Virus record (IMG/VR): IMGVR_UViG_3300009448_000011
Span: 41,688 to 105,687 of that record
Reading direction: 5' to 3' (one strand)
Length of the DNA: 64,000 nt
Source of the DNA: a virus
Shown one piece after another: positions 16,094-40,939 of the stretch. A model generated the notes under the pieces. The model was not told the DNA's origin and ran no database searches. It saw only the letters and a list, made by a program, of their open reading frames with translations. Numbering within the stretch: position 1 is the first letter of the stretch; each line of letters starts with the position of its first letter. The translations under genes were made by a program, and so were the position numbers.

Positions 16094-16123
16094 TTGACAT
16101 ACTAAGTTATGGTATGTTATACT
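16094..16123 (+). promoter_or_regulatory. Sigma70-type promoter of cassette copy 1
   Basis: TTGACA-18 nt-TATACT with extended -10 TG. Confidence 0.7.
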
Positions 16124-16147
16124 TTAAAAAAGGAAAAAGAGAATAGA

Positions 16148-16732
16148 ATGAATTTAGAAACTTGTCAAAACTTAAGCTTGATAATAGAAAAAGACCAAAC
16201 AATTGAAGTAATTGAAATTTGGGCAAAAGTATTATATATAAGAAGAAGCAAAGGAAGAAATTCATTTTATTCGAAGAAAGGAATAACAAAAGAAACAGAA
16301 GGAATATTTTGTAATAACTTAAAAGTTTCAGAAAATTATAAAAGCCTTTTTAAAAAATACCACCCCGATTTAAACAAAGGAAAAGAAAGTTATGTTGACA
16401 TTTCAAAAAACATTAATAGATGGAAAAACTTATTACTTGAGAGTGGACAAAGAGAGTTTGATCAACAATTATATACAGAGCTTATTGAGTTTTGTGGACC
16501 ACTCACATCCATTTTCACTATTGGAACCAGAGCAAGTTTTATCGCAAAACAAACGTGCGGATCTATCAACATCCCTCAATTTAGTTCTGAACAGGAATTT
16601 GTTGAGTGGAAAGCAGCGCCAAAGCAAGTTGCTTCCAGGCAAGCGTTCCTTGATAGCCAACTTACTAGAGCTCAAATCATCAAAAAGTACGGTAAATCCT
16701 ACTATGATTATGAAAGAGATCTTCCTTTTTAA
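16148..16732 (+). CDS. Cassette ORF-A copy 1 (IEIW domain, partial J-domain, PF tail)
   Basis: MNLETCQNL aligns with the other copies; YKSLFKKYHPDLNKG; ends ERDLPF. Confidence 0.75.
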   Translation: MNLETCQNLSLIIEKDQTIEVIEIWAKVLYIRRSKGRNSFYSKKGITKETEGIFCNNLKVSENYKSLFKKYHPDLNKGKESYVDISKNINRWKNLLLESGQREFDQQLYTELIEFCGPLTSIFTIGTRASFIAKQTCGSINIPQFSSEQEFVEWKAAPKQVASRQAFLDSQLTRAQIIKKYGKSYYDYERDLPF

Positions 16733-17138
16733 TCCTGACCAGGACACTATAATACGTCCTTACGGATTAGAAAAAAATCAAATGTATAGTAATTATATGC
16801 CAACGGGCAAAGAAAGCAAAAATTATTTAAGGAGTTACATTAATAAAGCAGAATCTTTAGGGATCAAAGTCAAAGCTTTCAATTTTAACATTTGCGGTCC
16901 TGTTGTCACACAAGAAGCTATTGAATTCGCCAATTACATGAATATTGCAATTAAAGAATTAAATGGAGTGAAAATACAAATCAATGTATTCACTTTGGAA
17001 CAATTAATCAAAGAATTAATGACAAATATAAATGGAAACAAATGGTTCATCACTTCGCAAGTTCCAAGTATATGCTGGGGAAAAGATCAGGTACAATATT
17101 TAATTTCAGAAAAAAAAGCTATATTAACAGAAAGTTAA
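16392..17138 (+). CDS. Cassette ORF-B copy 1, PD-(D/E)XK endonuclease (free-standing)
   Basis: E...EPEQ..KRADL...LLELK; homologous to the three other copies. Confidence 0.7.
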   Translation: MLTFQKTLIDGKTYYLRVDKESLINNYIQSLLSFVDHSHPFSLLEPEQVLSQNKRADLSTSLNLVLNRNLLSGKQRQSKLLPGKRSLIANLLELKSSKSTVNPTMIMKEIFLFNPDQDTIIRPYGLEKNQMYSNYMPTGKESKNYLRSYINKAESLGIKVKAFNFNICGPVVTQEAIEFANYMNIAIKELNGVKIQINVFTLEQLIKELMTNINGNKWFITSQVPSICWGKDQVQYLISEKKAILTES

Positions 17139-17222
17139 CGTTCTGATTCATCTATTCCTTCAGACTTATCAATTTTATTCATTTCGCCCCAAAGACCATC
17201 TAAATTTTCTTCATCAGAACCC

Positions 17223-17696
17223 TCATTGTTCTGATGATTCTTTTTTTTTCTCAACCTTACTAAAGTCTTCAGTTACAGTATTAAAAATTTTAATAATAGC
17301 TTGTTTTTCTTGTAGAAACTTCATTAAGGCACTTGTTAGTGAAGTATTACATTCACTAACAACATGCATAGAATATTCAAGATAAAGATCATCAGGGTTC
17401 AAAGAACTAAGAGAAAGAATACCTTCAAGACCAGGCTGAACACTCATAATAATATTAATCAAAAAATCGGGGCTTATAAAAAGAGGAACTTCTATAGGCA
17501 AAACAATACGAATTAAATGATTAGATAAAGGATAAATTTGAGAAAAACCGTACGAAGTTTCTCCTTCAATTAACCACCCTTTATCTTCTAAAAATTTAAC
17601 ATTACAAAATTCTAAATATTGAAATAATATTTTATTATTACGAATAGAAAGCATATATTCGTAAGGATTAAAATTAGGATTAGGAGTAGAAAGCAT
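17223..17696 (-). CDS. Hypothetical protein (may extend to 17135 by frameshift)
   Basis: ORF with an A9 run before the stop and an acidic continuation in the +1 frame. Confidence 0.55.
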   Translation of the reverse strand: MLSTPNPNFNPYEYMLSIRNNKILFQYLEFCNVKFLEDKGWLIEGETSYGFSQIYPLSNHLIRIVLPIEVPLFISPDFLINIIMSVQPGLEGILSLSSLNPDDLYLEYSMHVVSECNTSLTSALMKFLQEKQAIIKIFNTVTEDFSKVEKKKESSEQ

Positions 17697-17719
17697 ATAT
17701 TCGTAAGGATTAAAATTAG
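17645..17719. repeat. 33-bp direct repeat (42-bp period)
   Basis: tagaaagcatatattcgtaaggattaaaattag at 17645-17677 and 17687-17719. Confidence 0.85.
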
Positions 17720-17751
17720 TTTTAAAAAAATTGACTTTTTGTTATTTTGAT

Positions 17752-19306
17752 TTACCTAAAATAGCAGAATGCCCCCATCAGAACGGTACTCCGTTTGGTG
17801 GCGGGATGAATGCGAGTGAGGCGACGATTGCCTGTCCTCCTTCCGAGATCTACCGATTGTCGGGATTGTCGGACAGGCATAAGGAGACGAACAAATTCAT
17901 TGCTTATTCAATGTTTTATCTGAGTTTTTCTGGATAAAATTATGCTATCATAGTTTCATGATAGTTAGAGAAGCCAAGCTAAAATACGGTACAGCAGAGC
18001 AATATTCTGCCATTGATAAAGCCATCCGAACAGCACAGTTCATTCGGAACAAAGCCGTTCGCTATTGGATGGACAATCAAGGTACGAGTAAAGCCGATCT
18101 GTACAGTATCTGCAAAGACTTGGCTAAAGAGTTTGACTTTGCTAAAAAGCTTAACTCCGCTGCTCGTCAGGCTAGTGCTGAACGTGCTTGGGTTGCTATC
18201 TCTAGCTTCTACACCCGATGCAAAAAGCGGCTCACTCCAGTTGGGTCTCCCAACCATGGAAGTAAGACAAAACAAGGCGTAGGCAAGAAAGGTTTTCCAA
18301 AGTTTAAGAAACATTGTCGTTCTGTTGAGTATAAGGTTTCAGGATGGAAACTATCGAAAGATTGCAAATCGATCGCATTCACTGATGGTTTTGAGATTGG
18401 AACATTATCGATATTTTGCAACAATGAAACTCAAGAAGACTTGCATAGGCTGAAAATTAATCGTGTGCGGATCGTGCGGAGAGCAGACGGGTATTATGCC
18501 CAATTCTGTTTTGATGCAGATCGTAAAGAGCAAGGGGAATATTCAGGCAATGTTGTCGGATTGGATTTAGGGTTGAAGTTTTTCACCAAAGACCAAAACG
18601 ATAATGCTGTAATATATCCACAGTTCTTGAGAAAGGCCCAGATGCAACTCAAGAAAACTCAACGTCGATTAAGCAAGAAATTTGTGAAGGGTGCCAAACC
18701 CCAATCAAACAACTACCACAAGGCGCAAAAACAACTAGGAAGAATTCATCTCAAAATTCAACGCCAGCGAAAAGATTGGGCGATAAAAGCCGCCCGAAAC
18801 GTAGTGATATCTAACGATGTCGTGGTGTATGAAAATTTGAAGATTGCGAACATGGTCAAAAATCATCATTTGGCTAAGTCAATTTCCGATGCTGGTTGGT
18901 ATCAATACACTCAATGGCTGGACTACTATGGCAAGATTTGGGATAAAGCAGTTGTGGCAGTATCGCCAAACTATACGTCTCAAGATTGCTCTAATTGCGG
19001 TCATCGAGTGAAAAAGTCTCTTAGTACCAGAACGCACTCATGCCCCAACTGCAAAATTGAAATTTGTCGCGATACGAATGCGGCTTTGAATATCTTGCAC
19101 AAGGGATTGAACATTCTTGGTGTTGAGTGGGACAAAAACAGTACTTCTGGGCAAGAAGGATCTGCCTCTGAGAATGAGGGAAAGCGCGGGGAGAGATGTA
19201 CCTCTACAGTCGATGAGTAATTAAAGACTGCAAGTAATTCTCTGTGAACCGCGAATAAGAATCCCCCGCTATATCGGTACTTCGATTAGCGGCGGGAGTA
19301 TGTCAA
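17752..19306 (+). mobile_element. IS200/IS605-family tnpB-only element (IS1341-like)
   Basis: Preceded by TTGAT and ends in TCAA; related subterminal hairpins at about 17772-17805 and 19263-19296; GC visibly higher than the flanks. Confidence 0.85.
17958..19220 (+). CDS. tnpB: RNA-guided endonuclease TnpB
   Basis: RuvC motifs GLDLGL, VVYENL and RDTNAA; zinc finger CSNCG..CPNC; GFPKFKK. Confidence 0.93.
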   Translation: MIVREAKLKYGTAEQYSAIDKAIRTAQFIRNKAVRYWMDNQGTSKADLYSICKDLAKEFDFAKKLNSAARQASAERAWVAISSFYTRCKKRLTPVGSPNHGSKTKQGVGKKGFPKFKKHCRSVEYKVSGWKLSKDCKSIAFTDGFEIGTLSIFCNNETQEDLHRLKINRVRIVRRADGYYAQFCFDADRKEQGEYSGNVVGLDLGLKFFTKDQNDNAVIYPQFLRKAQMQLKKTQRRLSKKFVKGAKPQSNNYHKAQKQLGRIHLKIQRQRKDWAIKAARNVVISNDVVVYENLKIANMVKNHHLAKSISDAGWYQYTQWLDYYGKIWDKAVVAVSPNYTSQDCSNCGHRVKKSLSTRTHSCPNCKIEICRDTNAALNILHKGLNILGVEWDKNSTSGQEGSASENEGKRGERCTSTVDE

Positions 19307-19349
19307 AAAAAGTCAATGAAAAAAGTAAAAAAATTAATAGTTAAAAAAA

Positions 19350-19772: not shown

Positions 19773-19900
19773 TATTTTTTTTATAGTAAATAGTGAATAT
19801 TAAATAAATTACATATTTTCAATTAAAGCAGCAAAATGTCCTCCTTCGGACTAGTATTCCAGTTAAAGGAGGGTAAGGAAGTAATGTTAACAATTTTTTT

Positions 19901-20503
19901 TCATTTAGCGGCCCAACTAGTACCCAATTTACATTCTGCTTTAGAAGGAAAATCAGGCACTAATTTATGTAATAATTCATCCATTGCTTTTTTCATTCCT
20001 AATTCTTGTGCAGCAGCATATTCATAAGAAATATCTTGAAATTTATATTCAGGAATATAAACTTCCCCATCTTTTCTTACATTTACTACTTCACCTTGTC
20101 CAGGGATATAAGTAATACATTCATCATGAACTAAGCCTACGATATAGCCTGGAGAAGAATGTTGTTTATACTTAGTATTAAGCTGAGTAAAAAACTGATC
20201 GATATAATGTGCGGCGCGTTTTGTCATAATACTAGAAAGGCCTTGTATAATGGTATTACAACCTTTACGCATAGTAGCGCCATCATTTTCTATTCCGTGA
20301 GCATTACCTTCGCCAACGAAATAGCGTCTATTTGTTATAGGACATTGTACCCATTTTTGATATCTAGCCAAAGAACTAGTATTATCAATATAGACTTGCA
20401 ATTCTGGAAATAAATTAAAATAGTTTTTAAGAAGTTGTTCAGCAACCTTAATATCTATTTGAAGAGCGGTAGAAATTCTATTAGCACTTCCACCATAAAT
20501 TAC
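19901..20503 (-). CDS. polA: PolA polymerase subunit, exon 3
   Basis: VIYGG, NTIIQG and motif C VHDE; the exon begins after the intron's terminal G at 20504. Confidence 0.9.
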   Translation of the reverse strand, partial: VIYGGSANRISTALQIDIKVAEQLLKNYFNLFPELQVYIDNTSSLARYQKWVQCPITNRRYFVGEGNAHGIENDGATMRKGCNTIIQGLSSIMTKRAAHYIDQFFTQLNTKYKQHSSPGYIVGLVHDECITYIPGQGEVVNVRKDGEVYIPEYKFQDISYEYAAAQELGMKKAMDELLHKLVPDFPSKAECKLGTSWAAK

Positions 20504-20556
20504 CTTAAACCCTAAATTTTCATCTAGGTTTGGACTATACCTTTTAATGTAATTAT

Positions 20557-20586
20557 TTGACATACATTAAAACACCGTGTTATAAT
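20557..20586 (+). promoter_or_regulatory. Sigma70-type promoter of cassette copy 2
   Basis: TTGACA-18 nt-TATAAT with extended -10 TG. Confidence 0.8.
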
Positions 20587-20613
20587 TAGTATAACAAAGA
20601 AACATTTTAGATA

Positions 20614-21192
20614 ATGGACATACAAACAGCGGCGAATTTACAAGAATTAATAGAACAAGATCCTTTAATAGAATTAATCGAAATATGGGATAAAGTTTTA
20701 TACATAAGAAAAGTAAAAGGCCGAGGAAGGTTTCATACTAAAAAAAATATTACTTTGTTAAAAAGTGGAATATACATCAATACAAAATATATACTCCAAG
20801 AATACAAAAGACTTCAAAAAAAATATCACCCTGATTTAAACAAAGGAAAAAAAAATTATGTTGAAATTTCAAAAAGCATTAATCAATGGAAAGACTTATT
20901 ATTTGAATGTGACGAAAGAGAACTCAATAGAACAGTATATCAGTTACTTATTACAACATGTGGACCGCTCACATCCATTTTCAGCATTGGAAAATCAGCA
21001 GACTTTATTTGGGGGCAAGAGGCCGGATTTCTCCACATCCCTAGATTTAATTCTGAACAGGAATTCAAGGAATGGAAAATTCCCTTTAGGAATTGGGCGG
21101 AAAAACTCGATGATTGCCGATTGCCTAGAAGTAAAAGGAAGTTCTCAGATGTTGAGCACTACGGAGTTAATGAAAGAGATCTTCCTTTTTGA
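20614..21192 (+). CDS. Cassette ORF-A copy 2
   Basis: IEIWDKVLYIRK, YKRLQKKYHPDLNKG; ends ERDLPF. Confidence 0.75.
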   Translation: MDIQTAANLQELIEQDPLIELIEIWDKVLYIRKVKGRGRFHTKKNITLLKSGIYINTKYILQEYKRLQKKYHPDLNKGKKNYVEISKSINQWKDLLFECDERELNRTVYQLLITTCGPLTSIFSIGKSADFIWGQEAGFLHIPRFNSEQEFKEWKIPFRNWAEKLDDCRLPRSKRKFSDVEHYGVNERDLPF

Positions 21193-21589
21193 TGCAGCAG
21201 AAACTATTGTTCCTACTTATGATGTTTCTATGTCTGATTTTCAATCTCAATATTTTCCATTGGGGAAAGAAAGCAAGAATTATTTCAGAAGTTATGTGCA
21301 GGAAGCACTTAATAGAGGCATCAAAGTGAAATCATTTACTTTTTGGTTTGCGGGCCCTCTAGTGTCTATTGAAGCCATCAAATTTTCTATTTATTGGAAT
21401 CGCGTGATCAAACAAATAGGTGGAATTCAAGTAGAAATCAAAGTTTTGTCTTTGGAACAATTAATTAATTACATCATTTCCAATATTCCAACAAAAAAAT
21501 GGTATGTATTAAATCAACATCCTTCTGTTTGTATGAGTAGAGCGCAGGTTGAAGCTCTAATAGAAGCTCAACTAGCCATTTTAGTATAA
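20858..21589 (+). CDS. Cassette ORF-B copy 2, PD-(D/E)XK endonuclease
   Basis: LENQ..KRPDFS...CLEVK. Confidence 0.75.
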   Translation: MLKFQKALINGKTYYLNVTKENSIEQYISYLLQHVDRSHPFSALENQQTLFGGKRPDFSTSLDLILNRNSRNGKFPLGIGRKNSMIADCLEVKGSSQMLSTTELMKEIFLFDAAETIVPTYDVSMSDFQSQYFPLGKESKNYFRSYVQEALNRGIKVKSFTFWFAGPLVSIEAIKFSIYWNRVIKQIGGIQVEIKVLSLEQLINYIISNIPTKKWYVLNQHPSVCMSRAQVEALIEAQLAILV

Positions 21590-21616
21590 TCTTTTAATAT
21601 CTAATTATCTTTAAGT

Positions 21617-21649
21617 CGCCTTGTACATTAATGTATTTAGGCGTTTTTT
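21617..21649 (+). terminator. Intrinsic terminator of cassette copy 2
   Basis: cgcct...aggcg hairpin followed by T6. Confidence 0.7.
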
Positions 21650-21787
21650 ATTATGTATTCTTAAAAGTCTCTGAACCATTTTATAAACTTTCATTTATAG
21701 CTGGCTGCTGATTGACATATAGTATTTTTTAAACTACTTAGTGTTCCAGCAATTGAGTGTTTTTTACTTCACCATAATTTACAATTT

Positions 21788-22051
21788 AGTGAAGCCGCAG
21801 ACTTTACCACGGTCTCTTCTTGTCCATCCATTCATATCTTTTTTAGCTTCTTTAATAACATTCCATTTAGGAACAGTAGCTAATTCAGGGTACATTCCAA
21901 TAGCCGAAACTACATGAAGATCCCCGTCAGGATTAGGATATGTTTCTTTTGTATGTGGATTAATAAGAAAGGGATTATGCACTTCGGCATCGAAAAACGC
22001 ATTAATCATTCTCTCTATTTTTGCTATACAAGCAATAGCTCTTACTTCTTG
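21788..22051 (-). CDS. polA: PolA polymerase subunit, exon 2
   Basis: QEVRAIA...GDLH...RDRGKVCGFT. Confidence 0.9.
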
Positions 22052-22271
22052 CAATATAGTTTTATTCTATACTGGCACTACTCTTCACCATCTCTATTAA
22101 GTACAGGTGTTTTACGTCAGTGCTCTACTCTTGCCCAATTAATATAATAGAATAATAGTTCTAATTAATTTGCTAGATCGGGATTAGTTTACTATCACTT
22201 TCCCCGAATTGGTAAAATATTTTTTATACTATTTCTAATATAAACGACCCTTTTTTATTGTATTTATTTGT

Positions 22272-22300
22272 TTGACATTCAGCCATATAAGAGATACAAT
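22272..22300 (+). promoter_or_regulatory. Sigma70-type promoter of cassette copy 3
   Basis: TTGACA-17 nt-TACAAT. Confidence 0.8.
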
Positions 22301-22327
22301 AAAAAAAAGACAAAAAACAAATAAGGT

Positions 22328-22900
22328 ATGGATGCTCAAACTTGTAGAAACCTACAAACATTAATTGATAAAGATAATAATATTGAACTCATAGAAATAT
22401 GGGCCAAGGTACTTTATCTAAGAATGAAAAAAGGAAAAAACAAGTTTTGCAGTAAAAAAGGAATAACTAATTTAAGCTCAGGAATTTATTTAAACTTAAC
22501 TAACTTTAAAAATGAATACACAAAATTGCAACGAAAATATCACCCAGACAAAAATGCAAAACATTTTGAAATTTCAAAAGGTATTAATCAATGGAAAGCA
22601 TTTATATTTGAATGTGACAAACGAGAACTTAATAGAACAGAACTTAATACATTACTTGAATCATGTCCCCCCAACACATCCTTATTCTCTCTTAGAGAAC
22701 CAGCAAGTTATTTACAACAACAAGAGACCGGACTTTTCAACCACCTTGACGACATTGCCAGGCACTATTGGGCCACTGTTACGCCTAAGCAAAGAGCTGA
22801 GGCAGAAGCTAGGGAAGAAGAATGGCTTGCTCGTCGATGTGGTAGAAACAAAGATGGAAGTAAATACGTCGACCCTTATGAAGGAACTTGTCCCTTTTAA
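22328..22900 (+). CDS. Cassette ORF-A copy 3
   Basis: IEIWAKVLYLRMKKG, LQRKYHPDKN; ends YEGTCPF. Confidence 0.75.
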   Translation: MDAQTCRNLQTLIDKDNNIELIEIWAKVLYLRMKKGKNKFCSKKGITNLSSGIYLNLTNFKNEYTKLQRKYHPDKNAKHFEISKGINQWKAFIFECDKRELNRTELNTLLESCPPNTSLFSLREPASYLQQQETGLFNHLDDIARHYWATVTPKQRAEAEAREEEWLARRCGRNKDGSKYVDPYEGTCPF

Positions 22901-23300
22901 AGAAGATGCACAACAATTTGTTGATTCATCTTTTAGAAAGGAACAATTTACTTTTAATGCAGAACGCGTTGTCAATTATAAATGTTACATAAGCAATTAT
23001 GTGAAAGCTGTTCAACAAAAAAAAGGTAAAGTAAAACAAATTACTTTTGCTTTTGTAGCTCCAAAAATAACAGTAGATGCATATGAATTGGCGTGGATTT
23101 TAACACATAGTCCAATTTACAATAATATTGGTGGCGTTAAAATCATAGTAGAATTATATACATTAGAAGCTTTTATCGAAAAACTGATTAATATAATCCC
23201 AGCCAATAAATGGTTCATTAAAAGTTCAATTCCTTTTAATTGTGTAAATGGGAGAGATGTAGATCTTCTAGTTAAAGAAAATAGAGCTATTATTATTTAA
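22512..23300 (+). CDS. Cassette ORF-B copy 3, PD-(D/E)XK endonuclease
   Basis: LENQ..KRPDFS...VVETK. Confidence 0.75.
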   Translation: MNTQNCNENITQTKMQNILKFQKVLINGKHLYLNVTNENLIEQNLIHYLNHVPPTHPYSLLENQQVIYNNKRPDFSTTLTTLPGTIGPLLRLSKELRQKLGKKNGLLVDVVETKMEVNTSTLMKELVPFKEDAQQFVDSSFRKEQFTFNAERVVNYKCYISNYVKAVQQKKGKVKQITFAFVAPKITVDAYELAWILTHSPIYNNIGGVKIIVELYTLEAFIEKLINIIPANKWFIKSSIPFNCVNGRDVDLLVKENRAIII

Positions 23301-23326
23301 TTTATTTATTTTTTATCTTTAGTAAT

Positions 23327-23356
23327 AAACTCAGTATATAGGTGTATACTGAGTTT
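23327..23356 (+). terminator. Probable terminator hairpin of cassette copy 3
   Basis: aaactcagtata/tatactgagttt inverted repeat followed by T-rich sequence. Confidence 0.6.
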
Positions 23357-23373
23357 CAATTTATATTTAGTTA

Positions 23374-23460
23374 AGCCGAGTAATCACTAATACCCACACA
23401 CATACCTTTAGGCGCCGCACCTAAAGCTTTTCTTACCGTTGTTGTAATTTCATATGACAT
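23374..23460 (-). CDS. polA: PolA polymerase subunit, exon 1 (29 codons, missing from the ORF track)
   Basis: MSYEITTTVRKALGAAPKGMCVGISDYSA; the spliced product is 29+88+200 = 317 aa. Confidence 0.85.
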
Positions 23461-23522: not shown

Positions 23523-23876
23523 TTAAACAATATTATGTTTCAACAAAACAAGAATGATTTGTTTAATAATATCGCCATGACAATCATTAGGTTTGCACCA
23601 ACAAGCAAGTTTAAAATCTACCCCTTTTTTTTCTAATTGAGCTAAGCGAATCAATTCATCATAAACAGAGCCTTTTTTCAAAGAATACATTTGAAGAATC
23701 CAGGCCTTATAGAGCTGTAGACTTTCTGCAAGAGTTCTATTATGTCTAACTGCATAAGGATTATTTAAAGGGCTAGCTTTTAAATTGTAATAAGCATTTT
23801 TACGGCCAATGTAGATAATATCTTCGCCAACAAATCCGTCTTTTTTCCCATTGATAATGTGCATAGAGTTGTTCAA
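23523..23876 (-). CDS. DUF4326-like protein
   Basis: IYIGR..SPLNNPY...LACWCKPNDCHGDII. Confidence 0.8.
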   Translation of the reverse strand: MNNSMHIINGKKDGFVGEDIIYIGRKNAYYNLKASPLNNPYAVRHNRTLAESLQLYKAWILQMYSLKKGSVYDELIRLAQLEKKGVDFKLACWCKPNDCHGDIIKQIILVLLKHNIV

Positions 23877-23883
23877 TTAAATA

Positions 23884-25173
23884 TCAAAATTGATGTTGAT
23901 CAATAGAAATAACAGCAAGAGTAGAAGAAACTTGTTGTAAATTAGCAGAGCCACTAGAACTCATGCGACCTGTACTAGAACCTATAGAAGAAAAACCGAC
24001 ATGTACGTTATTAGTAGTACTATTAATAATAGAGTTATACTTCAAACATTCAGACCAAAGTTTACTATATTTTTTATAACGTAACAAATTTTTAATTAAA
24101 TTAATATGACTATATTTAGAAATCAAATAATTCTCATCAAATAAAGGTTCTTTTTCTTCATCAAGGGCTTCTTGTTTTAGTAGATCAAGATATAATTTTA
24201 TTTCATCTGCTTGCAAGCTAGATAAAGAAGCGCCGCCTAATTTAGTCAAATAATCATTAATAAAAGAAACTAAGCCCTTATTATTATTAAGTAAAGTTTT
24301 GACTTTATCAGGAATAACATACTTAAGTTCCCAATGACCTTGAGCATTAAGATCAGTATCAGTATAGATAGTAAAACCTAATTCATGTACTAAATAAGAT
24401 CTATGAAGATTAGTTTGTTCTTCGGCATAAGAAGTAATCTTAGCTAATAGAGAAGTATCGAGACACATGCCGTAATATTCCATTTTTGCACAAATAACAG
24501 TAGCTTGCTGATCTGATTCGTATGCAAATTGTTGATGAAGAAGATCAAGTTGAGTTTTAAATAAATAATAACCTTCAATTAATATAGAATTAATAGAAGA
24601 AAGTTTAGGAGCGCCAACATCTAAAGCGGCATAACCTAATTGGCTAGTAGTTAAAGGTCGTTCACCCCAAGAACTAGTAGCTTCACTTTTATCGAGATGG
24701 ATATCAAAATAATCCCTTGCTAAATCTTTAAGACCATGGCCTCTAAATATAGAAGCTTTCATTCCTGTAGTAATGGCCAAACTTTTCATTAAAGTCAAAG
24801 AACAAACAGTATTAACGGGCCAGGATTTAAACTCGTTATAAAATTGTTTTAAATCAAATTGACTATAGTGAAGTATTTTTAATATATTTTCATTAAGCAA
24901 TACTTTTGTATTAAATAAAGATTTAGCAGAAGAACTCAATAATATAAAATCTAAAATATAAGGAATAGAATGATTTATACTATTTAATTGAACTAAAGAT
25001 ATTTTAGAACTATGAGGATCCAAAGCACTAGGATTTACTTTAGATAAATCAATCATAGTTTCAGTATCCAGTGCAATTTCCTTACTTTCTACACAAAAAT
25101 CAATTATTGCCTCTATATCTTTATCTTCTGTTACATAATAAATATCAATTTCCGCTGTTTCTATTAATTTCAT
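23884..25173 (-). CDS. polA: PolA N-terminal subunit (3'-5' exonuclease and thumb)
   Basis: ALDTET, FDLK, YAALDV, TGRMSS..NLQQ; the ORF stops before motif A. Confidence 0.88.
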   Translation of the reverse strand: MKLIETAEIDIYYVTEDKDIEAIIDFCVESKEIALDTETMIDLSKVNPSALDPHSSKISLVQLNSINHSIPYILDFILLSSSAKSLFNTKVLLNENILKILHYSQFDLKQFYNEFKSWPVNTVCSLTLMKSLAITTGMKASIFRGHGLKDLARDYFDIHLDKSEATSSWGERPLTTSQLGYAALDVGAPKLSSINSILIEGYYLFKTQLDLLHQQFAYESDQQATVICAKMEYYGMCLDTSLLAKITSYAEEQTNLHRSYLVHELGFTIYTDTDLNAQGHWELKYVIPDKVKTLLNNNKGLVSFINDYLTKLGGASLSSLQADEIKLYLDLLKQEALDEEKEPLFDENYLISKYSHINLIKNLLRYKKYSKLWSECLKYNSIINSTTNNVHVGFSSIGSSTGRMSSSGSANLQQVSSTLAVISIDQHQF

Positions 25174-25684: not shown

Positions 25685-26779
25685 TTAAGAAAGATTTAGA
25701 ATAGAATTTAATTGAAGTTGGAGATCGAGATAAGAGTCGGGATGTTCCAAATAATAGTCGTAAACTTTTTGAAGACCTGCGACTTTTTTATCTAAATGAG
25801 GAACATAGAACCAAGCACCGTGTTGTTGAATAATATTTGCATCAAGAGATAAATTAACGGTATCAGCAAAAACATCAACACCTGCTATTATAGTATCATT
25901 TCGTTTAATAGGAAAAATAAAAGGAATTTCCACTTTTTTAAAGGGGGTAGAGGTTTTATTTTTAACAGCTTGAATAGAAACAATTTGACCTATTTTTTCT
26001 TTAGCGTCTTCAAGCCAACTAACACGATTTAAATCTAATCTAACAGAACAATAATAGTGAACAGCTCTACCTCCACAAGTAGTAGATTTAGAACCATAAC
26101 CAAGAAGATTCTGACCACGTTCTTGATTAAGTAAGATAATAGAAATATTACGTTCAGCAGCAAGAGTAACTAATTGTTTAAGAGCATTACTCATTAAGCG
26201 TGCTAAAGAACCAATCATAGTAGTACCCATTTCTTTTTTTTCATCTAGATCGCCACTAGGAACAAGAGCTGCTACAGAATCAAGAACAATTAAATTTAGT
26301 ACAGGATTACCAGCACTATCTTGTAATTTTATACCTGTTCGTATAGCCTCTAGAGCTTCTTCTGCAGAATTAGGTGCAAAGGTACAAAGTTTATCTAAAT
26401 TAACGCCACAATATATCATAAAGTCAGGATCTATAGCATGTTCAGCATCGACCCACATACAAAGTTTGTTTTGTTTTTGATAACTAGAAACAATATGGGA
26501 AGCCAAAGTACTTTTACCAACACTAGTATCTCCAAAAATCTCTATAATTCTGCCTACGGGGAGACCGCCGCCCAAAACGTTATTTAAACTTAAACAATCT
26601 AATTTAACTCTACCGACGCTTTCAAATTTATTTTTATTACGAAATCCAGCATATTGAGTACCAAACTTTTTACTAAGAGTTTTATCAAATAATTCTAAAG
26701 ATTCAAAGTCAGTTTCAGGTAGATCAGTTTCAAGTAGATCAGTTTCAAGTAGATCAGTTTCAGGTAGATTTTTTTTCAT
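25685..26779 (-). CDS. recA: RecA recombinase
   Basis: GGLPVGRIIEIFGDTSVGKST, DAEHA, DSVAAL, ARLMS, KNK; N-terminal ETDL(L/P) repeats. Confidence 0.93.
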   Translation of the reverse strand: MKKNLPETDLLETDLLETDLPETDFESLELFDKTLSKKFGTQYAGFRNKNKFESVGRVKLDCLSLNNVLGGGLPVGRIIEIFGDTSVGKSTLASHIVSSYQKQNKLCMWVDAEHAIDPDFMIYCGVNLDKLCTFAPNSAEEALEAIRTGIKLQDSAGNPVLNLIVLDSVAALVPSGDLDEKKEMGTTMIGSLARLMSNALKQLVTLAAERNISIILLNQERGQNLLGYGSKSTTCGGRAVHYYCSVRLDLNRVSWLEDAKEKIGQIVSIQAVKNKTSTPFKKVEIPFIFPIKRNDTIIAGVDVFADTVNLSLDANIIQQHGAWFYVPHLDKKVAGLQKVYDYYLEHPDSYLDLQLQLNSILNLS

Positions 26780-33478: not shown

Positions 33479-33489
33479 TTTCAACTTCA

Positions 33490-35856: not shown

Positions 35857-35912
35857 TTGTAAAATTTGTTAAAAATATTAAAGAAGGTTTCAATACGACC
35901 TTCCTTAATAAT

Positions 35913-38285
35913 TTAAGTTTTAATAATATATAGTGCTTTACCGGCAGTTTTAGGAACTTCCACTGTTGTATTAATGACCCACAATAAATTAGTATTTTTA
36001 ATTTGGGAAGCAGTAGGAAAAACACAATAACCATCTGAAGCAATAATGCTTAAAATAGGGGTATATTTTTTAATACCGTAAAGTAGAGGAGTTACCATAT
36101 CAGTGCCCCCACCACCTTCAGCGCGAATCCACCCGTTTTTAATTTTATCTAAAAAGTTAGCGCCATCAGCTTTAACAATATATTCACTACGAACTTTTGT
36201 ATCTGCAAAAATCAAAGCAATTTCTACATTAGTTTGTGTTTGAACATTTTGTATTTCTGTACAAAACATAGTTAATTCTTCTTCATTAAAACAAGAACCA
36301 CTAGTATCTATTATTACTAACATTTTATCTAGACCCTTTTTATTTAAAAGACCAGGCATATAAACATTAGGGTTAGGTAAAGAGCCCATTCTTCTTGCAG
36401 GTTTACTCCACGTTTGTTCTAAAACAGGCATACACCTTTTAATTAAATATTTACGTAATTCTACATGCCAAGAAATTTGAGGTTTATAAACATCAGGATT
36501 AACTTTACCTAATATAGAATTGTTAGAATTAAGTGATTGAGCTTTAGCCCTATTATATCTTTGTGTCCATTGAAAATCATCTATTTGTGAAGAAGTAGAA
36601 TCTTCTTTATTGGCTTCTTTTATATCATCGCCTGCAAATAATGTATGTTTGCTTGCTAATTTTTTAGATAATTCTTCTACTTCTTTTTCTAATTTTTCTA
36701 ATACACTTTCTTCATTATTAGAAGAATCAGGAGGTTTTTTACTATTATTAGCCTTGCCCCCTTTTTTTTTATTTTGGGACTTTGACTGATTTTCTACTTG
36801 TTTTTGTAAATTATCTCGTAATGTTTTAATTAAATATTCATATAAACTTTCTGAGGTCCAGTGACTAAAATGTTTTCTTTCACTTTGCGCAATATTACAC
36901 TCAGAATATATACTCTCTAAATTAACTACTTCTTTTTTATTTAAATATAAATAGGAGGGTGATCCTACTTTTTGTTCATCTTTAAATCCAATACTTTCAT
37001 TTATAATTGCATCACAATTATGAGTCACTACATTACTTGCAAGATATATGTGCGTTTCAGTTTCAATGTTATACACTAATCCTTCATAATATTGCTTAGA
37101 AATATGTTTAATAGGAGTTAATATATAATCCTTAGTAGTTTTCCATATTTGACTATTATTTACATTTCTAGAAGATTTAGTAGTTTTAATATATGACAGT
37201 AAATAGCCACTTTCTACATAATCAATAGTTAAAAATTTATTATGTTTTGCAAATAATAATTGTAATTGTCTAGCTAATAAATTTGAAGATGTCCACGCAG
37301 TTAATTTATTTTTATTTCGGTGCCCTTCCCCATCAAAATAACCTTTAATAAAACTAGCAGTTAAATTATTAGGTAAATCTAAAAGCCAATTCGGCAATTC
37401 TGTTTTTTCTTTTATTAAAATTGAATTACAAATAGATACAATATAATAATAGTAGGAAAGAAAAGTAGAAGAAATTAAGGCTAAAGAATTAAAATAAGAT
37501 GAGATTCGATTATTTGGAATTAAATCAAAAGAACCTTTAGCCAGAAAATAGCCTATGGAATATAATAAATCATTTGTAAGGAGAAAGTTAGAAGGAAAAG
37601 GAGGGAGAATAGGAGGAATTAAAGAAGAATGAAGTTTAGGGATACATAAATAATCTTGAGTAATATTTAACTCTTGTGCTGTTTTCCAACTATAATTAAT
37701 TTGGTTATTAGAGTTAAAGTTAGCAACGTAAAAAGGATGATCTTGGGTAGCTTCAATATTCAAACAACCAGTGGGTTTAATAGTATACATATCATCTTGA
37801 TATATATTTTCCATAGTGTTTGTAATAGTGCCGCCAACTAAAGTGGTATCGCCTATGATTAAATCTTCTATATTCTTGAAACCTTCTAAGGTAAGAATAG
37901 GTTCTCCTGGTTTAAAACAAGCAATATTATATAAATTGCTAATTCTTTTTTTACCACGTATACAATGTCTAAATACAATATGAAGCATTTCATGAATAAT
38001 AACTGCACATTGTACAGGAATTTCTAATGAAAAAAATCTATCAGCAAAAAACATTTCATCGCCATTAGTATAAGCCACCTGTTCAAAATAAGGGTGAGAA
38101 TCAGGGACTACAGAACTAGGAACAAAAGTCAATAAGCCTTGTAGAGAATTATCTTCACATATAATACGAGCTCTTAAATTATGTAAAATCCTAATTTTTT
38201 TATCATAAGAAATATTAGAAGGAGGAAAACTATCTGCTAATTTTTCATCAGACATAGAAAATAAAGAAGTTTCAATCATAGTCAA
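35913..38285 (-). CDS. DUF2201-type metallopeptidase-like/VWA protein with intein
   Basis: AYTNG, HEMLH, NIA|CDAIIN, DTSGS, GGGGTD. Confidence 0.85.
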   Translation of the reverse strand: MTMIETSLFSMSDEKLADSFPPSNISYDKKIRILHNLRARIICEDNSLQGLLTFVPSSVVPDSHPYFEQVAYTNGDEMFFADRFFSLEIPVQCAVIIHEMLHIVFRHCIRGKKRISNLYNIACFKPGEPILTLEGFKNIEDLIIGDTTLVGGTITNTMENIYQDDMYTIKPTGCLNIEATQDHPFYVANFNSNNQINYSWKTAQELNITQDYLCIPKLHSSLIPPILPPFPSNFLLTNDLLYSIGYFLAKGSFDLIPNNRISSYFNSLALISSTFLSYYYYIVSICNSILIKEKTELPNWLLDLPNNLTASFIKGYFDGEGHRNKNKLTAWTSSNLLARQLQLLFAKHNKFLTIDYVESGYLLSYIKTTKSSRNVNNSQIWKTTKDYILTPIKHISKQYYEGLVYNIETETHIYLASNVVTHNCDAIINESIGFKDEQKVGSPSYLYLNKKEVVNLESIYSECNIAQSERKHFSHWTSESLYEYLIKTLRDNLQKQVENQSKSQNKKKGGKANNSKKPPDSSNNEESVLEKLEKEVEELSKKLASKHTLFAGDDIKEANKEDSTSSQIDDFQWTQRYNRAKAQSLNSNNSILGKVNPDVYKPQISWHVELRKYLIKRCMPVLEQTWSKPARRMGSLPNPNVYMPGLLNKKGLDKMLVIIDTSGSCFNEEELTMFCTEIQNVQTQTNVEIALIFADTKVRSEYIVKADGANFLDKIKNGWIRAEGGGGTDMVTPLLYGIKKYTPILSIIASDGYCVFPTASQIKNTNLLWVINTTVEVPKTAGKALYIIKT
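37017..37919 (-). mobile_element. Intein (301 aa) with LAGLIDADG-like domain
   Basis: Starts CFKPG, has ATQDHPF and FIKGYFDGEG, ends VVTHN|C. Confidence 0.9.
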
Positions 38286-38685
38286 TTCCTAATAATTCTG
38301 TTAAAGCAAACTGAGCATCAAATAATTGAATAGTGTTAGGTCTACTAAACTCAAATAAATATTGTTGAAATACGCCTAAAGATTTTTCATAATATTTTTC
38401 AACAATAGCATTTACAATAAGTTTTTCATCAAATAAAAAAGTAATTTCTTGGTATTGAGCTGCGGTGCCTAAATAGACAGTAAATCTAATAGTAGGATCT
38501 ACTACATCAACTCCCTGACTATTTTGATAAGTAGGAAAAAATATCAAAACAGCAAATTTTACTATATCTTCGTGTGTAAAATTACGAGAAGATAGAATTT
38601 CATACCCTCGATTAGTAAAACTATAGTAAGCCAATAATTCTGCTATTACTTTTAATTTGTTTTTATATTCTAAGTTTTTTGTCAC
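38272..38685 (-). CDS. Hypothetical protein
   Basis: ORF between the AAA+ and VWA genes. Confidence 0.55.
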   Translation of the reverse strand: MTKNLEYKNKLKVIAELLAYYSFTNRGYEILSSRNFTHEDIVKFAVLIFFPTYQNSQGVDVVDPTIRFTVYLGTAAQYQEITFLFDEKLIVNAIVEKYYEKSLGVFQQYLFEFSRPNTIQLFDAQFALTELLGIDYD

Positions 38686-38715
38686 GGGGAGTTTCTCCTT
38701 ATATAATTTTAAAAA

Positions 38716-39507
38716 TTAAACAGATATTAAATCACTAAAAGCTTGCATATGTTCTTTGCGCATTGCTTTATATGCCTCAGACTTACCAATTTTGTAGGGT
38801 AGTTTTTTATTATCTATTTTTTGTGCTTTACTAAATAGAGTAATCACACTTGTCACTAAAATTTCTTTACGAGGTAAATTATCTTCAATACTTCCTAATA
38901 CATTAAATACATAACATGCCGCTATAAATTCTTCTTCTGTTTTACAATACGACGGTAATGAATAACTTAATCCATATAAACCAGTTATTTTAGTAGGAAG
39001 AATATTTTTAATTAAGCGATCATCTTGGAGGACACCTAGACGAATATATTCAGACATAGGGGCAAGGCTAGCTAATTCTTCAATAACAAAAAAGAATTCA
39101 TGAGCAGTAGCGGCGCCTAAAAGACCTGGTAAAATAATTTTTAATTGTTGTTCATCAGTAATTTTCTCCATAATATTGGAACATTTTTCCCATGAACGGC
39201 TAGAAGGATTAATTTTATCATCATTATCTGCGACTGATTTAAAACCTTCGTCAAGAAATTCAGGACGAGCTCTTAAAAAAGCTTTAATAGAAGGAATAAT
39301 AGGGCGGCCGTTTTCTGCGCGATGGGCTTCCCATTTTAACCAAGCATTTACAGAAGTCATTACGTCAAAATGAATAAAACGATCTGAGATAGCACTAGAT
39401 AACTCATAGGCTATAGCACCATCTTCTACTCTATTTCCTGCTGCAATAATCATTACATTATCAGGAACTTTATATTTATCAATTTTTCTATCTAATATTA
39501 ATTCGTA
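38716..39507 (-). CDS. MoxR-like AAA+ ATPase, exon 2
   Basis: YELILDR, IAAGNR, DRF, SSRSWE. Confidence 0.88.
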   Translation of the reverse strand, partial: YELILDRKIDKYKVPDNVMIIAAGNRVEDGAIAYELSSAISDRFIHFDVMTSVNAWLKWEAHRAENGRPIIPSIKAFLRARPEFLDEGFKSVADNDDKINPSSRSWEKCSNIMEKITDEQQLKIILPGLLGAATAHEFFFVIEELASLAPMSEYIRLGVLQDDRLIKNILPTKITGLYGLSYSLPSYCKTEEEFIAACYVFNVLGSIEDNLPRKEILVTSVITLFSKAQKIDNKKLPYKIGKSEAYKAMRKEHMQAFSDLISV

Positions 39508-39752
39508 CATTAATATACCTTTAATTTTCATTAAAGAACGGAATACATTTTAATCTTTACTATATTTATATAGTATTAAGACTTGGACACTCTAGGTAAA
39601 ATTATAGTCTGTTTAACTTAAGACATCATTTACTACTCTCTACATTATTATTAAACATTACTTTAATAATTAACACGGGATTACCTTATAGTTTCCTACT
39701 TAGGTTTCCCCGTTAGCCTAATCTCTATTTGTTCTTTTTTGATTAAACCCTA

Positions 39753-39781
39753 TTGACTTATTAAAACCAATACATTATAAT
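39753..39781 (+). promoter_or_regulatory. Sigma70-type promoter of cassette copy 4
   Basis: TTGACT-17 nt-TATAAT. Confidence 0.8.
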
Positions 39782-39820
39782 ATATTTAAATACACACACA
39801 TTTACAAATAAGAAATTCAA

Positions 39821-40411
39821 GTGGACATACAAAGTTGTAAAAATCTTCAAGCATTAATTGATAAAGACAATAATATTGAACTCATAGAAATATGGGCTAA
39901 TATATTGTATTTAAGAATGCGAAAAGGAAAAAACAAATTTTGTAGTAAAAAAAGAATAACTAATTTAAAAGAAGGTGTTTATTTAAATATCTATACTTTT
40001 TCTAAAAATGAATACAAACAATTACAGCAAAAATATCACCCTGACACCAGCTCAAAATATTTACACATTTCAAAAAGTCTTAATCAATGGAAAGATTTAT
40101 TATCTAGATGTGACTACAGAGTCCAAAATAGAAGCATATATCTTGACATTGCTGCAACATATTCCAACAACCCATCCATATTCTCTATTGAAAAATCAAT
40201 TAGAATATTCAGTATGGCAAAAGAGGCCCGACTTTTCGACGGACTACTCGAGGATACCGCAGAGTGGGCAGAAGGATGTGATGAAGCCTGGCTCGCTCAA
40301 CAAAGAGCTGAGAGCCAATCTAGGTGGAAAGAATGGTCTAACTGGCAACGTGGTCGAGATAAAGAAGGAAATAAAATTAGAGACACTTATGACGGAACTC
40401 TTCCTTTTTAA
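39821..40411 (+). CDS. Cassette ORF-A copy 4
   Basis: IEIWANILYLRMRKG, LQQKYHPDTS; ends YDGTLPF. Confidence 0.75.
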   Translation: MDIQSCKNLQALIDKDNNIELIEIWANILYLRMRKGKNKFCSKKRITNLKEGVYLNIYTFSKNEYKQLQQKYHPDTSSKYLHISKSLNQWKDLLSRCDYRVQNRSIYLDIAATYSNNPSIFSIEKSIRIFSMAKEARLFDGLLEDTAEWAEGCDEAWLAQQRAESQSRWKEWSNWQRGRDKEGNKIRDTYDGTLPF

Positions 40412-40814
40412 TACAGAAGAAGAAGTATTTCTTGCTCCTCTCGGTAAAACTCACGATCAATTTCTAAAAGAAAATCCTATAGAAACTTCTTCATCTAAAA
40501 TGTATATACTTGCCACTAAACTTCATGCACAAAAATTAGGATTTAAACTAAAAAGATTAAATATGACTTTTGTGGCGCCTCTTGTTTCTAACAAAGCATT
40601 ACAATATGAACAATATCATAACAAAGCTATTAAAAATATAGGAGGAATTGCAGTAGATTTAAAAGTATTTACCTTAGAACAATTCATTAATGAATTATTT
40701 ACTTTAATTCCCGACAGTAAATGGTACATAAAAGATAATCATATTCCTTTTATCGCCTTGTCAAAATCTAAAGTAGAAATATTACAAGAAAATAATTTAG
40801 CCGTTATAATGTAA
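40008..40814 (+). CDS. Cassette ORF-B copy 4, PD-(D/E)XK endonuclease
   Basis: LKNQ..KRPDFS...VVEIK. Confidence 0.75.
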   Translation: MNTNNYSKNITLTPAQNIYTFQKVLINGKIYYLDVTTESKIEAYILTLLQHIPTTHPYSLLKNQLEYSVWQKRPDFSTDYSRIPQSGQKDVMKPGSLNKELRANLGGKNGLTGNVVEIKKEIKLETLMTELFLFNTEEEVFLAPLGKTHDQFLKENPIETSSSKMYILATKLHAQKLGFKLKRLNMTFVAPLVSNKALQYEQYHNKAIKNIGGIAVDLKVFTLEQFINELFTLIPDSKWYIKDNHIPFIALSKSKVEILQENNLAVIM

Positions 40815-40832
40815 TCATATTCATTTTTATTT

Positions 40833-40876
40833 AAATCTCTCTTATTGTGTTATTGCTTTAAGAGAGATTTTTATTT
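40833..40876 (+). terminator. Terminator hairpin of cassette copy 4
   Basis: aaatctctctta/taagagagattt followed by a T-rich tail. Confidence 0.65.
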
Positions 40877-40939
40877 GGTACGCAATAGTTTGCCCAGTTT
40901 TACTTATATATTTCTATATAAGGTGCCTACGAATATTTA

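What the first reader, a model, noticed from the sequence alone, without database searches (positions are those of the whole stretch)
16094..40939. Four-copy promoter/ORF-A/ORF-B nuclease cassette sitting antisense inside three group I introns and once free-standing
Seen: four diverged copies at 16094-17138, 20557-21649, 22272-23356 and 39753-40876. Each has a TTGAC(A/T)-17/18 nt-TA(T/C)A(A/C)T promoter, ORF-A and ORF-B, and three have a terminator hairpin. Three copies lie on the opposite strand inside group I introns. Known: intron homing endonucleases are normally single ORFs on the intron's sense strand (LAGLIDADG, GIY-YIG, HNH; PD-(D/E)XK for I-Ssp6803I). Inference: this is an undescribed two-gene, independently transcribed mobile nuclease module that uses intron loops as safe harbours. 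It could provide homing, phage-phage competition, or a nuclease paired with a chaperone or inhibitor.
Basis: partly seen in the sequence, partly recalled or inferred. Interest (0 to 1): 0.95.

Follow-up and report, generated by a model that had tools for sequence, protein, structure and literature searches.

The report
Two-gene nuclease cassette inside phage introns
A cyanophage-like virus carries four diverged copies of a self-contained mini-operon, in which a J-domain-like gene overlaps a restriction-enzyme-like nuclease gene in a second reading frame; three copies sit backwards inside self-splicing introns of replication genes, so it looks like a new kind of homing-endonuclease element.

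Summary
Four copies, 35-55% identical as protein, each have a near-consensus sigma-70 promoter, ORF-A, ORF-B and a hairpin with a U tract. They lie at the stated coordinates, and these are the only copies in the 105.7-kb virus record.

ORF-B models confidently (pLDDT 90) as a PD-(D/E)XK nuclease with a conserved E/D/ExK set. ORF-A has a sub-threshold J-domain with an invariant HPD motif, plus a low-confidence tail.

The finding text does not mention that the two genes share 335-404 nt in two reading frames. Both frames are stop-free in all four copies, where 4-14 stops are expected.

Three copies lie antisense in real group I introns: 22052-23373, 20504-21787 and 39508-40939. Each 5' exon ends in U and each intron ends in G. 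Splicing restores polymerase motifs A and B and an AAA+ ATPase without gaps. Relatives carry uninterrupted alleles at both polymerase sites.

Both gene families are very rare (18 and 22 hits in billions of proteins). They occur together in many copies on one other 282-kb contig.

The best reading is a free-standing-type homing-endonuclease cassette that has invaded introns. Transcription, cleavage and mobility are untested. Other windows of this scan noted the same cassette.

The parts
16094..16123 (+). Cassette 1 promoter (TTGACA, 18 nt, TATACT)
   Evidence: 11 of 12 consensus positions
16148..16732 (+). Cassette 1 ORF-A (J-domain-like). The conserved start is 16148; an upstream ATG at 16109 is not conserved.
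16392..17138 (+). Cassette 1 ORF-B (PD-(D/E)XK nuclease), +1 frame, overlapping ORF-A by 341 nt
17211..17237 (+). Hairpin plus T-run downstream of cassette 1; it overlaps the 3' end of the neighbouring minus-strand gene
20557..20586 (+). Cassette 2 promoter (TTGACA, 18 nt, TGnTATAAT). Its spacer and -35 region overlap P3' and P8 of intron 2 on the other strand.
   Evidence: 12 of 12
20614..21192 (+). Cassette 2 ORF-A
20858..21589 (+). Cassette 2 ORF-B; this copy was modelled (E21/E25, D57, E91, K93)
21617..21649 (+). Cassette 2 terminator hairpin plus T-run
22272..22300 (+). Cassette 3 promoter. The internal guide sequence of intron 1 (GGCUGA, 22284-22279 on the minus strand) lies in its spacer.
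22328..22900 (+). Cassette 3 ORF-A
22512..23300 (+). Cassette 3 ORF-B (389-nt overlap with ORF-A)
23327..23356 (+). Cassette 3 terminator hairpin
39753..39781 (+). Cassette 4 promoter (TTGACT, 17 nt, TATAAT)
39821..40411 (+). Cassette 4 ORF-A (GTG start)
40008..40814 (+). Cassette 4 ORF-B (404-nt overlap with ORF-A)
40833..40870 (+). Cassette 4 terminator hairpin
22052..23373 (-). Group I intron 1 in the second polymerase gene, at motif A (DYSA|QEVR). Cassette 3 lies between the 5' splice site and the guide sequence, in the P1 loop.
20504..21787 (-). Group I intron 2, at motif B (CGFT|VIYGG). P1 is CUUCACU/GGUGAAG; the R element is at 21677-21666 and the S element at 20543-20532. Cassette 2 lies between P7 and P3'.
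39508..40939 (-). Group I intron 3 in the AAA+ ATPase gene (QASA|YELILD). P1 is GUGCU/GGCAC and P10 is UACGA/UCGUA. Cassette 4 lies in the loop of a P2.1-type hairpin.
19901..23460 (-). Second polymerase gene (palm and fingers): exons 23460-23374, 22051-21788 and 20503-19901. The spliced product is 317 aa.
38716..41305 (-). AAA+ (MoxR-like) ATPase gene: exons 41305-40940 and 39507-38716

Best explanation
This is a self-contained selfish nuclease cassette of the homing-endonuclease type.

What it encodes. A host-type sigma-70 promoter drives one short transcript that ends at an intrinsic-terminator-like hairpin. The transcript encodes two proteins from partly the same DNA:
- ORF-A (about 190 aa) has a small alpha/beta N-terminal part, a J-domain-like module with an invariant HPD, and a poorly ordered tail that ends in a conserved ...PF.
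- ORF-B (243-268 aa) is one PD-(D/E)XK nuclease domain. Its start lies inside ORF-A in the +1 frame. Its catalytic D and ExK residues are encoded by the same nucleotides as the ORF-A tail.

How it works (inferred). ORF-B cuts the cassette-free or intron-free allele of a co-infecting relative. Recombinational repair then copies the cassette, with the surrounding intron, into the cut site. Each diverged lineage would serve its own target site.

Why it is tolerated. The unit has its own promoter and does not depend on translation of the host gene. It can therefore live between genes (copy 1) or backwards in places where the ribozyme tolerates an insert (copies 2-4). RNA splicing removes it from the polymerase and ATPase mRNAs.

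ORF-A (weakest step). It most likely recruits host DnaK/Hsp70 through the HPD motif, to fold, release or restrain the nuclease. The overlap locks the two genes together so that they are inherited as one unit.

Shown: the anatomy, the dual coding, the nuclease fold and motifs, the intron ends, and intron-free alleles in relatives. Inferred: transcription, cleavage, homing and Hsp70 recruitment.
For: Copies and rarity. There are four copies and no others in the record. The ORF-B family has 18 representatives among 1.84 billion proteins. The ORF-A family has 22 among 5.8 billion. At least 5 of each sit on a contig of 282,341 nt, taken to be one ENA contig because the source and length match.

Dual coding.
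- In the overlap both frames have 0 stops and the third frame has 15-18. Outside the overlap the other frame has 6-15 stops.
- Resampling synonymous codons predicts 11-14 stops in frame A, or 4-7 in frame B. It gave an open frame in 0 of 3000 trials, or in at most 0.17% of trials.
- The pattern of variation by codon position switches from frame A to frame B just after the HPD motif.

ORF-B. The AlphaFold2 model has pLDDT 90 and pTM 0.86 over the whole protein. About 30 of the best 35 structural matches are PD-(D/E)XK nucleases: NucS Z 8.0, AF1548 7.9, FokI 7.5, BspD6I, Can2, EcoRII and others (weakly). R(P/A)D on a strand and (L/V)ExK on the next strand are conserved in all full-length members.

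ORF-A. HPD is invariant in 22 of 22 sequences. DnaJ (PF00226) is hit by 14 of 22 members, best E 2.4e-5. Residues 1-125 of the model are confident and the tail is below pLDDT 50.

Introns. Each 5' exon ends in U and each intron ends in G. The spliced proteins align without gaps to Ma-LMM01 gp178 and to the Atu_ph07 ATPase. Rfam Intron_gpI gives partial hits at E 2.5e-4 and E 0.08. Exact R and S elements flank cassette 2.

Polymorphism in relatives. Relatives about 65% identical have uninterrupted alleles reading ...DYSAQEVR... and ...CGFTVIYGG.... Others are broken at exactly these sites.

Lineages. Window copies interleave with copies from the 282-kb contig in the ORF-A tree. There are no terminal inverted repeats or target-site duplications.
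Against: - There is no experimental or RNA evidence. No sequencing runs could be obtained.
- No locus with the same intron but without the cassette, and no empty intergenic site, could be fetched. Mobility of the cassette itself is therefore inferred from its distribution only.
- Structural matches to nucleases are moderate (Z at most 8). No sequence profile links ORF-B to a named family.
- The J-domain match is below Pfam's cut-off, and the structural matches to J-domains are weak (Z about 3).
- Cassette 2 lies between P7 and P3', an unusual place for an insert, so that intron might splice poorly.
- A transcript antisense to the intron could interfere with splicing.
Confidence: 0.6

Rival explanations
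1. The cassette is a competition or exclusion module rather than a homing element. The nuclease degrades host DNA or the DNA of competing phages, or it marks boundaries of genetic exchange. ORF-A protects the phage's own DNA or tunes the host chaperone network. The multiple copies would come from duplication and divergence.
For: The PD-(D/E)XK fold is shared with restriction and defence nucleases such as Can2, NucC, Shedu and SduA. Phage J-domain proteins that act on host DnaK are known (Rki of RB43, cited in PMC12619734). The loop between the PD and ExK motifs is variable.
Against: Three of the four copies lie inside mobile-type introns, at different ribozyme positions, in sites that are polymorphic among relatives. 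That is the signature of homing elements. Each copy's nearest relative is in another genome.
Confidence: 0.17
2. The cassette is a toxin-antidote (addiction) pair. ORF-B is a toxic nuclease and ORF-A is its inhibitor or regulator. The overlap enforces co-inheritance and a fixed ratio of expression.
For: The two genes are always together and are overlapped. A two-gene module of an antitoxin-like gene and a putative homing endonuclease has been reported in large aquatic phages (PMC12619734).
Against: ORF-A resembles a J-domain co-chaperone, not a known antitoxin fold. This reading also does not exclude homing.
Confidence: 0.12
3. A programmed +1 ribosomal frameshift at the conserved CCY-UUU-URA end of ORF-A fuses ORF-A to the C-terminal 135 aa of ORF-B. 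This product could be made instead of, or in addition to, full-length ORF-B.
For: All four window copies end ORF-A on P-F-stop, with a run of at least four U that lets tRNA-Phe re-pair in the +1 frame next to a stop codon, as in prfB. Frame B is coding downstream of that point.
Against: The catalytic D57, E91 and K93 and the first strands of the fold are encoded upstream of the site. The N- and C-terminal halves model as one domain, so a fusion would lack the active site. Three homologues end in PW, which has no UUU slip codon. Full-length ORF-B is called as a gene in other assemblies (P0003 and P0004).
Confidence: 0.08
4. The ORF-A tail is not translated, or is translated but has no function. 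The open frame would be a by-product of constraints on ORF-B.
For: The tail models poorly (pLDDT below 50). The overlap evolves mainly like frame B.
Against: With the ORF-B protein held fixed, 11-14 frame-A stops are expected and none is seen in any of four diverged copies. 17 of 22 homologues end at the same ...P(F/W), and they share a conserved GRxKxG...PF pattern.
Confidence: 0.03

Closest known systems
Free-standing homing endonuclease genes of T4-type phages (seg, mob), and 'collaborative homing' of F-CphI with the psbA intron of cyanophage S-PM2 (reviews PMC2988022 and PMC3984707; PMC6083498)
   Same: A nuclease gene with its own expression signals lies between genes or next to or inside group I introns of phage replication or metabolic genes. 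Invasion of an ORF-less intron by a free-standing endonuclease gene is the proposed origin of mobile introns.
   Different: Those are single genes of the GIY-YIG, HNH or Endo VII type, and when they are intronic they lie on the sense strand. Here the nuclease is PD-(D/E)XK, has a second overlapping gene, and lies antisense to the host gene in every copy.
I-Ssp6803I, the PD-(D/E)XK homing endonuclease of a cyanobacterial tRNA-fMet group I intron
   Same: It shares the catalytic superfamily, the cyanobacterial or cyanophage setting, and residence in a group I intron.
   Different: No sequence similarity was detected: a profile search of PDB sequences found nothing at E up to 10. It is also not among the 50 best structural matches. 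I-Ssp6803I is a single sense-strand ORF with no partner gene.
Antisense His-Cys box homing endonuclease genes in nuclear rDNA group I introns of myxomycetes (I-DirII; L2066 introns, PMC9548176)
   Same: The endonuclease gene lies on the strand opposite to the intron and is expressed on its own.
   Different: Those are eukaryotic, transcribed by Pol II, contain spliceosomal introns, encode a single His-Cys box protein, and have rRNA host genes.
CcdA/HicB-like antitoxin plus PacI-like putative homing endonuclease modules in 'moraphages' (PMC12619734)
   Same: A multi-copy two-gene module, an accessory gene plus a putative homing nuclease, in large aquatic phages.
   Different: The protein families differ, and no long dual-coding overlap, intron residence or J-domain partner was reported for them.
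Phage J-domain protein Rki of RB43 (cited in PMC12619734)
   Same: A small phage protein with an HPD J-domain that is thought to act through host DnaK.
   Different: Rki is a stand-alone gene. It is not linked to a nuclease or to a mobile element.

Membership tests
PD-(D/E)XK nuclease superfamily (ORF-B) | Restriction-endonuclease-like alpha/beta core fold | tested here: met
   The model has pLDDT 90. Most of the top 35 VIA-align rows are PD-(D/E)XK nucleases, with a best match of Z 8.0, rmsd 2.7 over 102 residues. The Z values are moderate.
PD-(D/E)XK nuclease superfamily (ORF-B) | Catalytic D ... (D/E)xK on adjacent strands, plus an acidic residue on the first helix | tested here: met
   D57 (R-P/A-D), E91-x-K93 and E21 are conserved in all full-length members and lie on the predicted strands and helix.
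PD-(D/E)XK nuclease superfamily (ORF-B) | Match to a curated sequence family | tested here: inconclusive
   No hit in Pfam, PHROGs or PDB sequences. The protein atlas gives only leads below 0.9, to MunI and PDDEXK_18.
Homing endonuclease (functional class) | The gene resides in a self-splicing intron, or stands free, at sites that are occupied in some genomes and empty in others | tested here: inconclusive
   Intron residence and one free-standing copy are shown. Intron-free and intron-occupied alleles exist at the same two polymerase sites in relatives.
Homing endonuclease (functional class) | Site-specific cleavage of the empty allele, followed by gene conversion | not testable with these tools
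   This needs enzyme assays and phage crosses.
J-domain (DnaJ, PF00226) (ORF-A) | HPD tripeptide between helices II and III | tested here: met
   HPD is invariant in 22 of 22 sequences. Helices at 60-70 and 80-98 flank it in the model.
J-domain (DnaJ, PF00226) (ORF-A) | Score above Pfam's gathering threshold | tested here: not met
   The best score among the window copies is 24.4 bits, against a cut-off of 27.8. 14 of 22 members hit at E up to 0.01. One relative, P0025, carries a precomputed PF00226 hit. I therefore call it J-domain-like.
J-domain (DnaJ, PF00226) (ORF-A) | Stimulates the Hsp70/DnaK ATPase | not testable with these tools
   This needs biochemistry.
Group I intron (the three host elements) | P1 with a U.G pair at the 5' splice site, a terminal G, and in-frame exon ligation | tested here: met
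   All three introns meet this. The spliced products align without gaps to intact homologues, and P10 pairings are present in introns 2 and 3.
Group I intron (the three host elements) | Rfam RF00028 at the gathering score | tested here: not met
   There are no hits at the gathering score. Partial core hits score 25.6 bits (E 2.5e-4) and 16 bits (E 0.08), and intron 1 gives none. The roughly 1-kb inserts split the cores, so the model cannot span them.
Programmed +1 frameshift (prfB-like) | A conserved slippery codon next to a stop, with a functional trans-frame product | tested here: inconclusive
   The site is present in all 4 window copies, but 3 homologues end in PW. A fusion product would also lack the active site.
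DNA transposon | Terminal inverted repeats and target-site duplications | tested here: not met
   None were found at the borders of any of the four cassettes.

The most novel reading that the evidence does not exclude
This would be a chaperone-coupled homing system. The J-domain-like ORF-A delivers host Hsp70 to the ORF-B nuclease, to activate it, recycle it or release it from its cut product. The 110-130-codon dual-coding overlap evolved to make the pair inseparable. The cassette promoters, which share nucleotides with ribozyme elements (the guide sequence, P3'/P8 and P2.1), couple antisense transcription to intron splicing. That would make cassette and intron one co-adapted mobile unit of a kind not described before.
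Probability: 0.25. Interest if true: 0.85.

Novelty: new variant of a known kind. Interest (0 to 1): 0.72.

Why it matters
This would add a new family of PD-(D/E)XK homing endonucleases. Only one such family, I-Ssp6803I, is well characterised, and site-specific nucleases of this kind are useful as tools.

As far as I could find in the papers searched, it would also be the first case in phages of three things:
- a homing-type nuclease gene placed antisense in group I introns with its own promoter;
- a homing-type nuclease tied to a J-domain-like partner;
- a mobile element in which two conserved proteins share more than 330 nt in two reading frames. The statistical support is very clean, so this is a good natural model for how overlapping genes evolve.

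The cassette occurs both free-standing and at three different ribozyme positions. This gives a direct snapshot of the proposed route by which free-standing endonuclease genes invade ORF-less introns.

Tried and rejected
Intron 2 junction. I first placed it at RDRGK|NLGF. That needed an A before the splice site or a homopolymer error. The end of the intron encodes a decoy 'NLGFK'.

Intron 3 acceptor. I first took G 39529. The homologue alignment showed a 7-residue insertion. G 39508 removes it and gives a 5-bp P10.

'Intron' between the exonuclease part and the rest of the polymerase. Rejected. Ma-LMM01 has the same natural split into gp180 and gp178, and the second gene here has its own ATG at 23460.

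Protein-protein prediction of ORF-A with ORF-B. No verdict: score 0.01 against a mark of 0.32. This is not evidence either way.

Searches that found no relatives:
- IMG/VR contigs
- JGI metagenome contigs
- GTDB genomes
- GenBank phages
- close polymerase relatives in IMG/VR

ORF-A whole-model fold search. Only Z up to 3.3, dominated by the low-confidence tail helices. A few J-domains appear at Z about 3.

Transposon reading. No inverted repeats or duplications at the borders.

A hairpin at the ORF-A stop of copy 2 (21133-21189) is not conserved in the other copies.


Full report
**The observation.** The window is part of a 105,687-nt IMG/VR virus record estimated to be 62% complete. Its nearest named relative is Microcystis phage Ma-LMM01, whose polymerase is only about 32% identical as protein. 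DNA repeat search finds four diverged copies of one unit. Six-frame searches of the whole record find exactly four matches to each ORF. Each unit has four parts:
- a promoter matching 11-12 of 12 sigma-70 consensus positions, the best-scoring site in its region and at a homologous position in every copy;
- ORF-A, 190-207 aa;
- ORF-B, 243-268 aa;
- a stable hairpin followed by a U-rich tract.

All four units lie on the + strand, opposite to the flanking replication genes.

**Dual coding.** ORF-B starts inside ORF-A in the +1 frame, and the two share 335-404 nt.
- In that stretch frames A and B have no stop codon in any copy, while the third frame has 15-18. Downstream, frame A has 8-15 stops. 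Upstream, frame B has 6-11.
- With the ORF-B protein held fixed and codons resampled from the phage's own usage, frame A should carry 11-14 stops and was never open in 3000 trials. In the reverse test frame B should carry 4-7 stops and was open in at most 0.17% of trials.
- Variation by codon position follows frame A up to the HPD motif. All three positions are constrained over the next 70 nt or so. After that the pattern follows frame B.

Gene callers miss this. In the databases ORF-B mostly appears as a 139-150-aa C-terminal piece that starts at an ATG 20 nt before the ORF-A stop.

**ORF-B.** The family is tiny: 18 representatives among 1.84 billion proteins, with no Pfam, PHROG or PDB sequence match. 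With a 15-sequence alignment, AlphaFold2 gives one compact domain over the whole length (pLDDT 90, pTM 0.86). An exhaustive structural comparison returns almost only PD-(D/E)XK nucleases at the top: NucS Z 8.0, AF1548 7.9, FokI cleavage domain 7.5, BspD6I, Can2, EcoT38I, McrC, EcoRII and others. Foldseek agrees weakly. E21/E25 on helix 1, D57 (R-P/A-D) at a strand, and E91-x-K93 on the next strand are conserved in every full-length member. These residues are encoded inside the overlap. The short database form, or a frameshift fusion, would therefore lack the active site.

**ORF-A.** There are 22 relatives among 5.8 billion proteins. The HPD tripeptide is invariant and sits in a KYHPD context typical of J-domains. 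The DnaJ family is hit below threshold by 14 of 22 members. The model is confident for residues 1-125: a helix, four strands and the J-like helices. It is below pLDDT 50 for the tail. The tail still ends in a conserved ...P(F/W) in 17 of 22 sequences. Structural matches to J-domains are weak, at Z about 3.

**The introns.** Rfam finds nothing at its gathering score, because each core is split by a 1-kb insert. Short-range scans give partial core hits in two of the three introns. I located the ends from P1 and P10 pairings and from homologues.
- Intron 2 (20504-21787): P1 is CUUCACU/GGUGAAG. Exact R and S elements flank the cassette. Splicing gives ...RDRGKVCGFT|VIYGG..., which is polymerase motif B.
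- Intron 1 (22052-23373): splicing gives ...DYSA|QEVR..., which is motif A. Its guide sequence GGCUGA lies in the spacer of the cassette-3 promoter.
- Intron 3 (39508-40939): P1 is GUGCU/GGCAC and P10 is UACGA/UCGUA. Splicing gives ...RLQASA|YELILD... in an AAA+ ATPase.

All 5' exons end in U and all introns end in G. The spliced products have no internal stop and align without gaps across the junctions to Ma-LMM01 gp178 and to the Atu_ph07 ATPase. Folding the introns with the cassette replaced by a tetraloop recovers P1, P2, P4-P6, P8 and P9-like helices.

The cassettes occupy three different places in the ribozymes: the P1 loop, a P2.1-type hairpin loop, and the junction between P7 and P3'. 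Copy 1 is intergenic. The polymerase is also naturally split into two genes, as in Ma-LMM01. The DUF4326 gene lies between these two genes, not in an intron.

**Relatives.** Polymerase relatives 55-68% identical include uninterrupted genes of 322-324 aa that read straight through both junctions. Others begin exactly at QEVR or at (V/L/T)IYGG. At least five further break points occur elsewhere. The introns of this polymerase are therefore polymorphic, as expected for mobile introns.

At least five ORF-A and five ORF-B genes lie on a 282,341-nt contig, taken to be one ENA contig because source and length match. In the ORF-A tree the window copies interleave with those copies. The lineages are therefore older than, or exchanged between, these genomes. 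No inverted repeats or target duplications flank the cassettes.

**Interpretation.** The simplest reading is a homing-endonuclease cassette of the free-standing type that has entered introns, with a J-domain-like partner locked to it by overprinting. Transcription, cleavage, homing and Hsp70 recruitment remain inferences. Other readings are an exclusion nuclease, a toxin-antidote pair, and a +1 frameshift fusion. They are less well supported, but the first two are not excluded.

Antisense endonuclease genes in group I introns are known in myxomycete rDNA (PMC9548176). A two-gene endonuclease module has been noted in large aquatic phages (PMC12619734). I found no description of this combination.

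Noticed in passing
window 23884-25173 (-), 23523-23876 (-), 23374-23460 (-): The family A polymerase is split into two separate genes, an exonuclease/N-terminal part and a palm/fingers part with its own ATG at 23460. The split is at the same point as Ma-LMM01 gp180/gp178. A DUF4326 gene is inserted between the two genes.
   Followed up: yes
relatives P0042-P0075 of window 19904-20503 (-): Related polymerase genes are broken at seven or more different conserved positions: motif A, motif B, before GESNAKG, ACNT|LIQG, IM|TKKA, after WY, and HD|E. This suggests that the gene is an intron hot spot in this phage group.
   Followed up: partly
window 20504-20525 (-): The last 20 nt or so of intron 2 encode 'NLGFK' in the exon-3 frame. 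This is a near-copy of the real exon-2 end 'VCGFT', it creates a false junction, and it may be a relic of the target site.
   Followed up: partly
window 22279-22284, 20563-20580, 39753-39758: Cassette promoter elements share nucleotides with ribozyme elements on the other strand. The guide sequence of intron 1 lies in a promoter spacer. P3'/P8 of intron 2 lie over the spacer and -35 box. The 3' strand of the closing helix in intron 3 abuts the -35 box.
   Followed up: partly
window 17958-19220 (+): A TnpB-type IS605 OrfB gene (Cas12f1-like TNB domain plus OrfB_IS605) lies just downstream of cassette 1. The DNA at 19000-19265 is 77% identical to a 'transposase accessory protein' region of Pseudanabaena phage PA-SR01.
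   Followed up: partly
window 35913-38285 (-): A DUF2201 metallopeptidase/VWA-like gene is interrupted by an intein with a LAGLIDADG endonuclease domain.
   Followed up: partly
Copy-1-type cassettes may therefore sit in polymerase introns elsewhere.
   Followed up: no
window 26709-26768 and 17632-17715: A 15-nt tandem repeat (four overlapping units) lies inside a minus-strand ORF. A 42-nt direct repeat (90% identical) lies at the start of the gene at 17223-17696.
   Followed up: no
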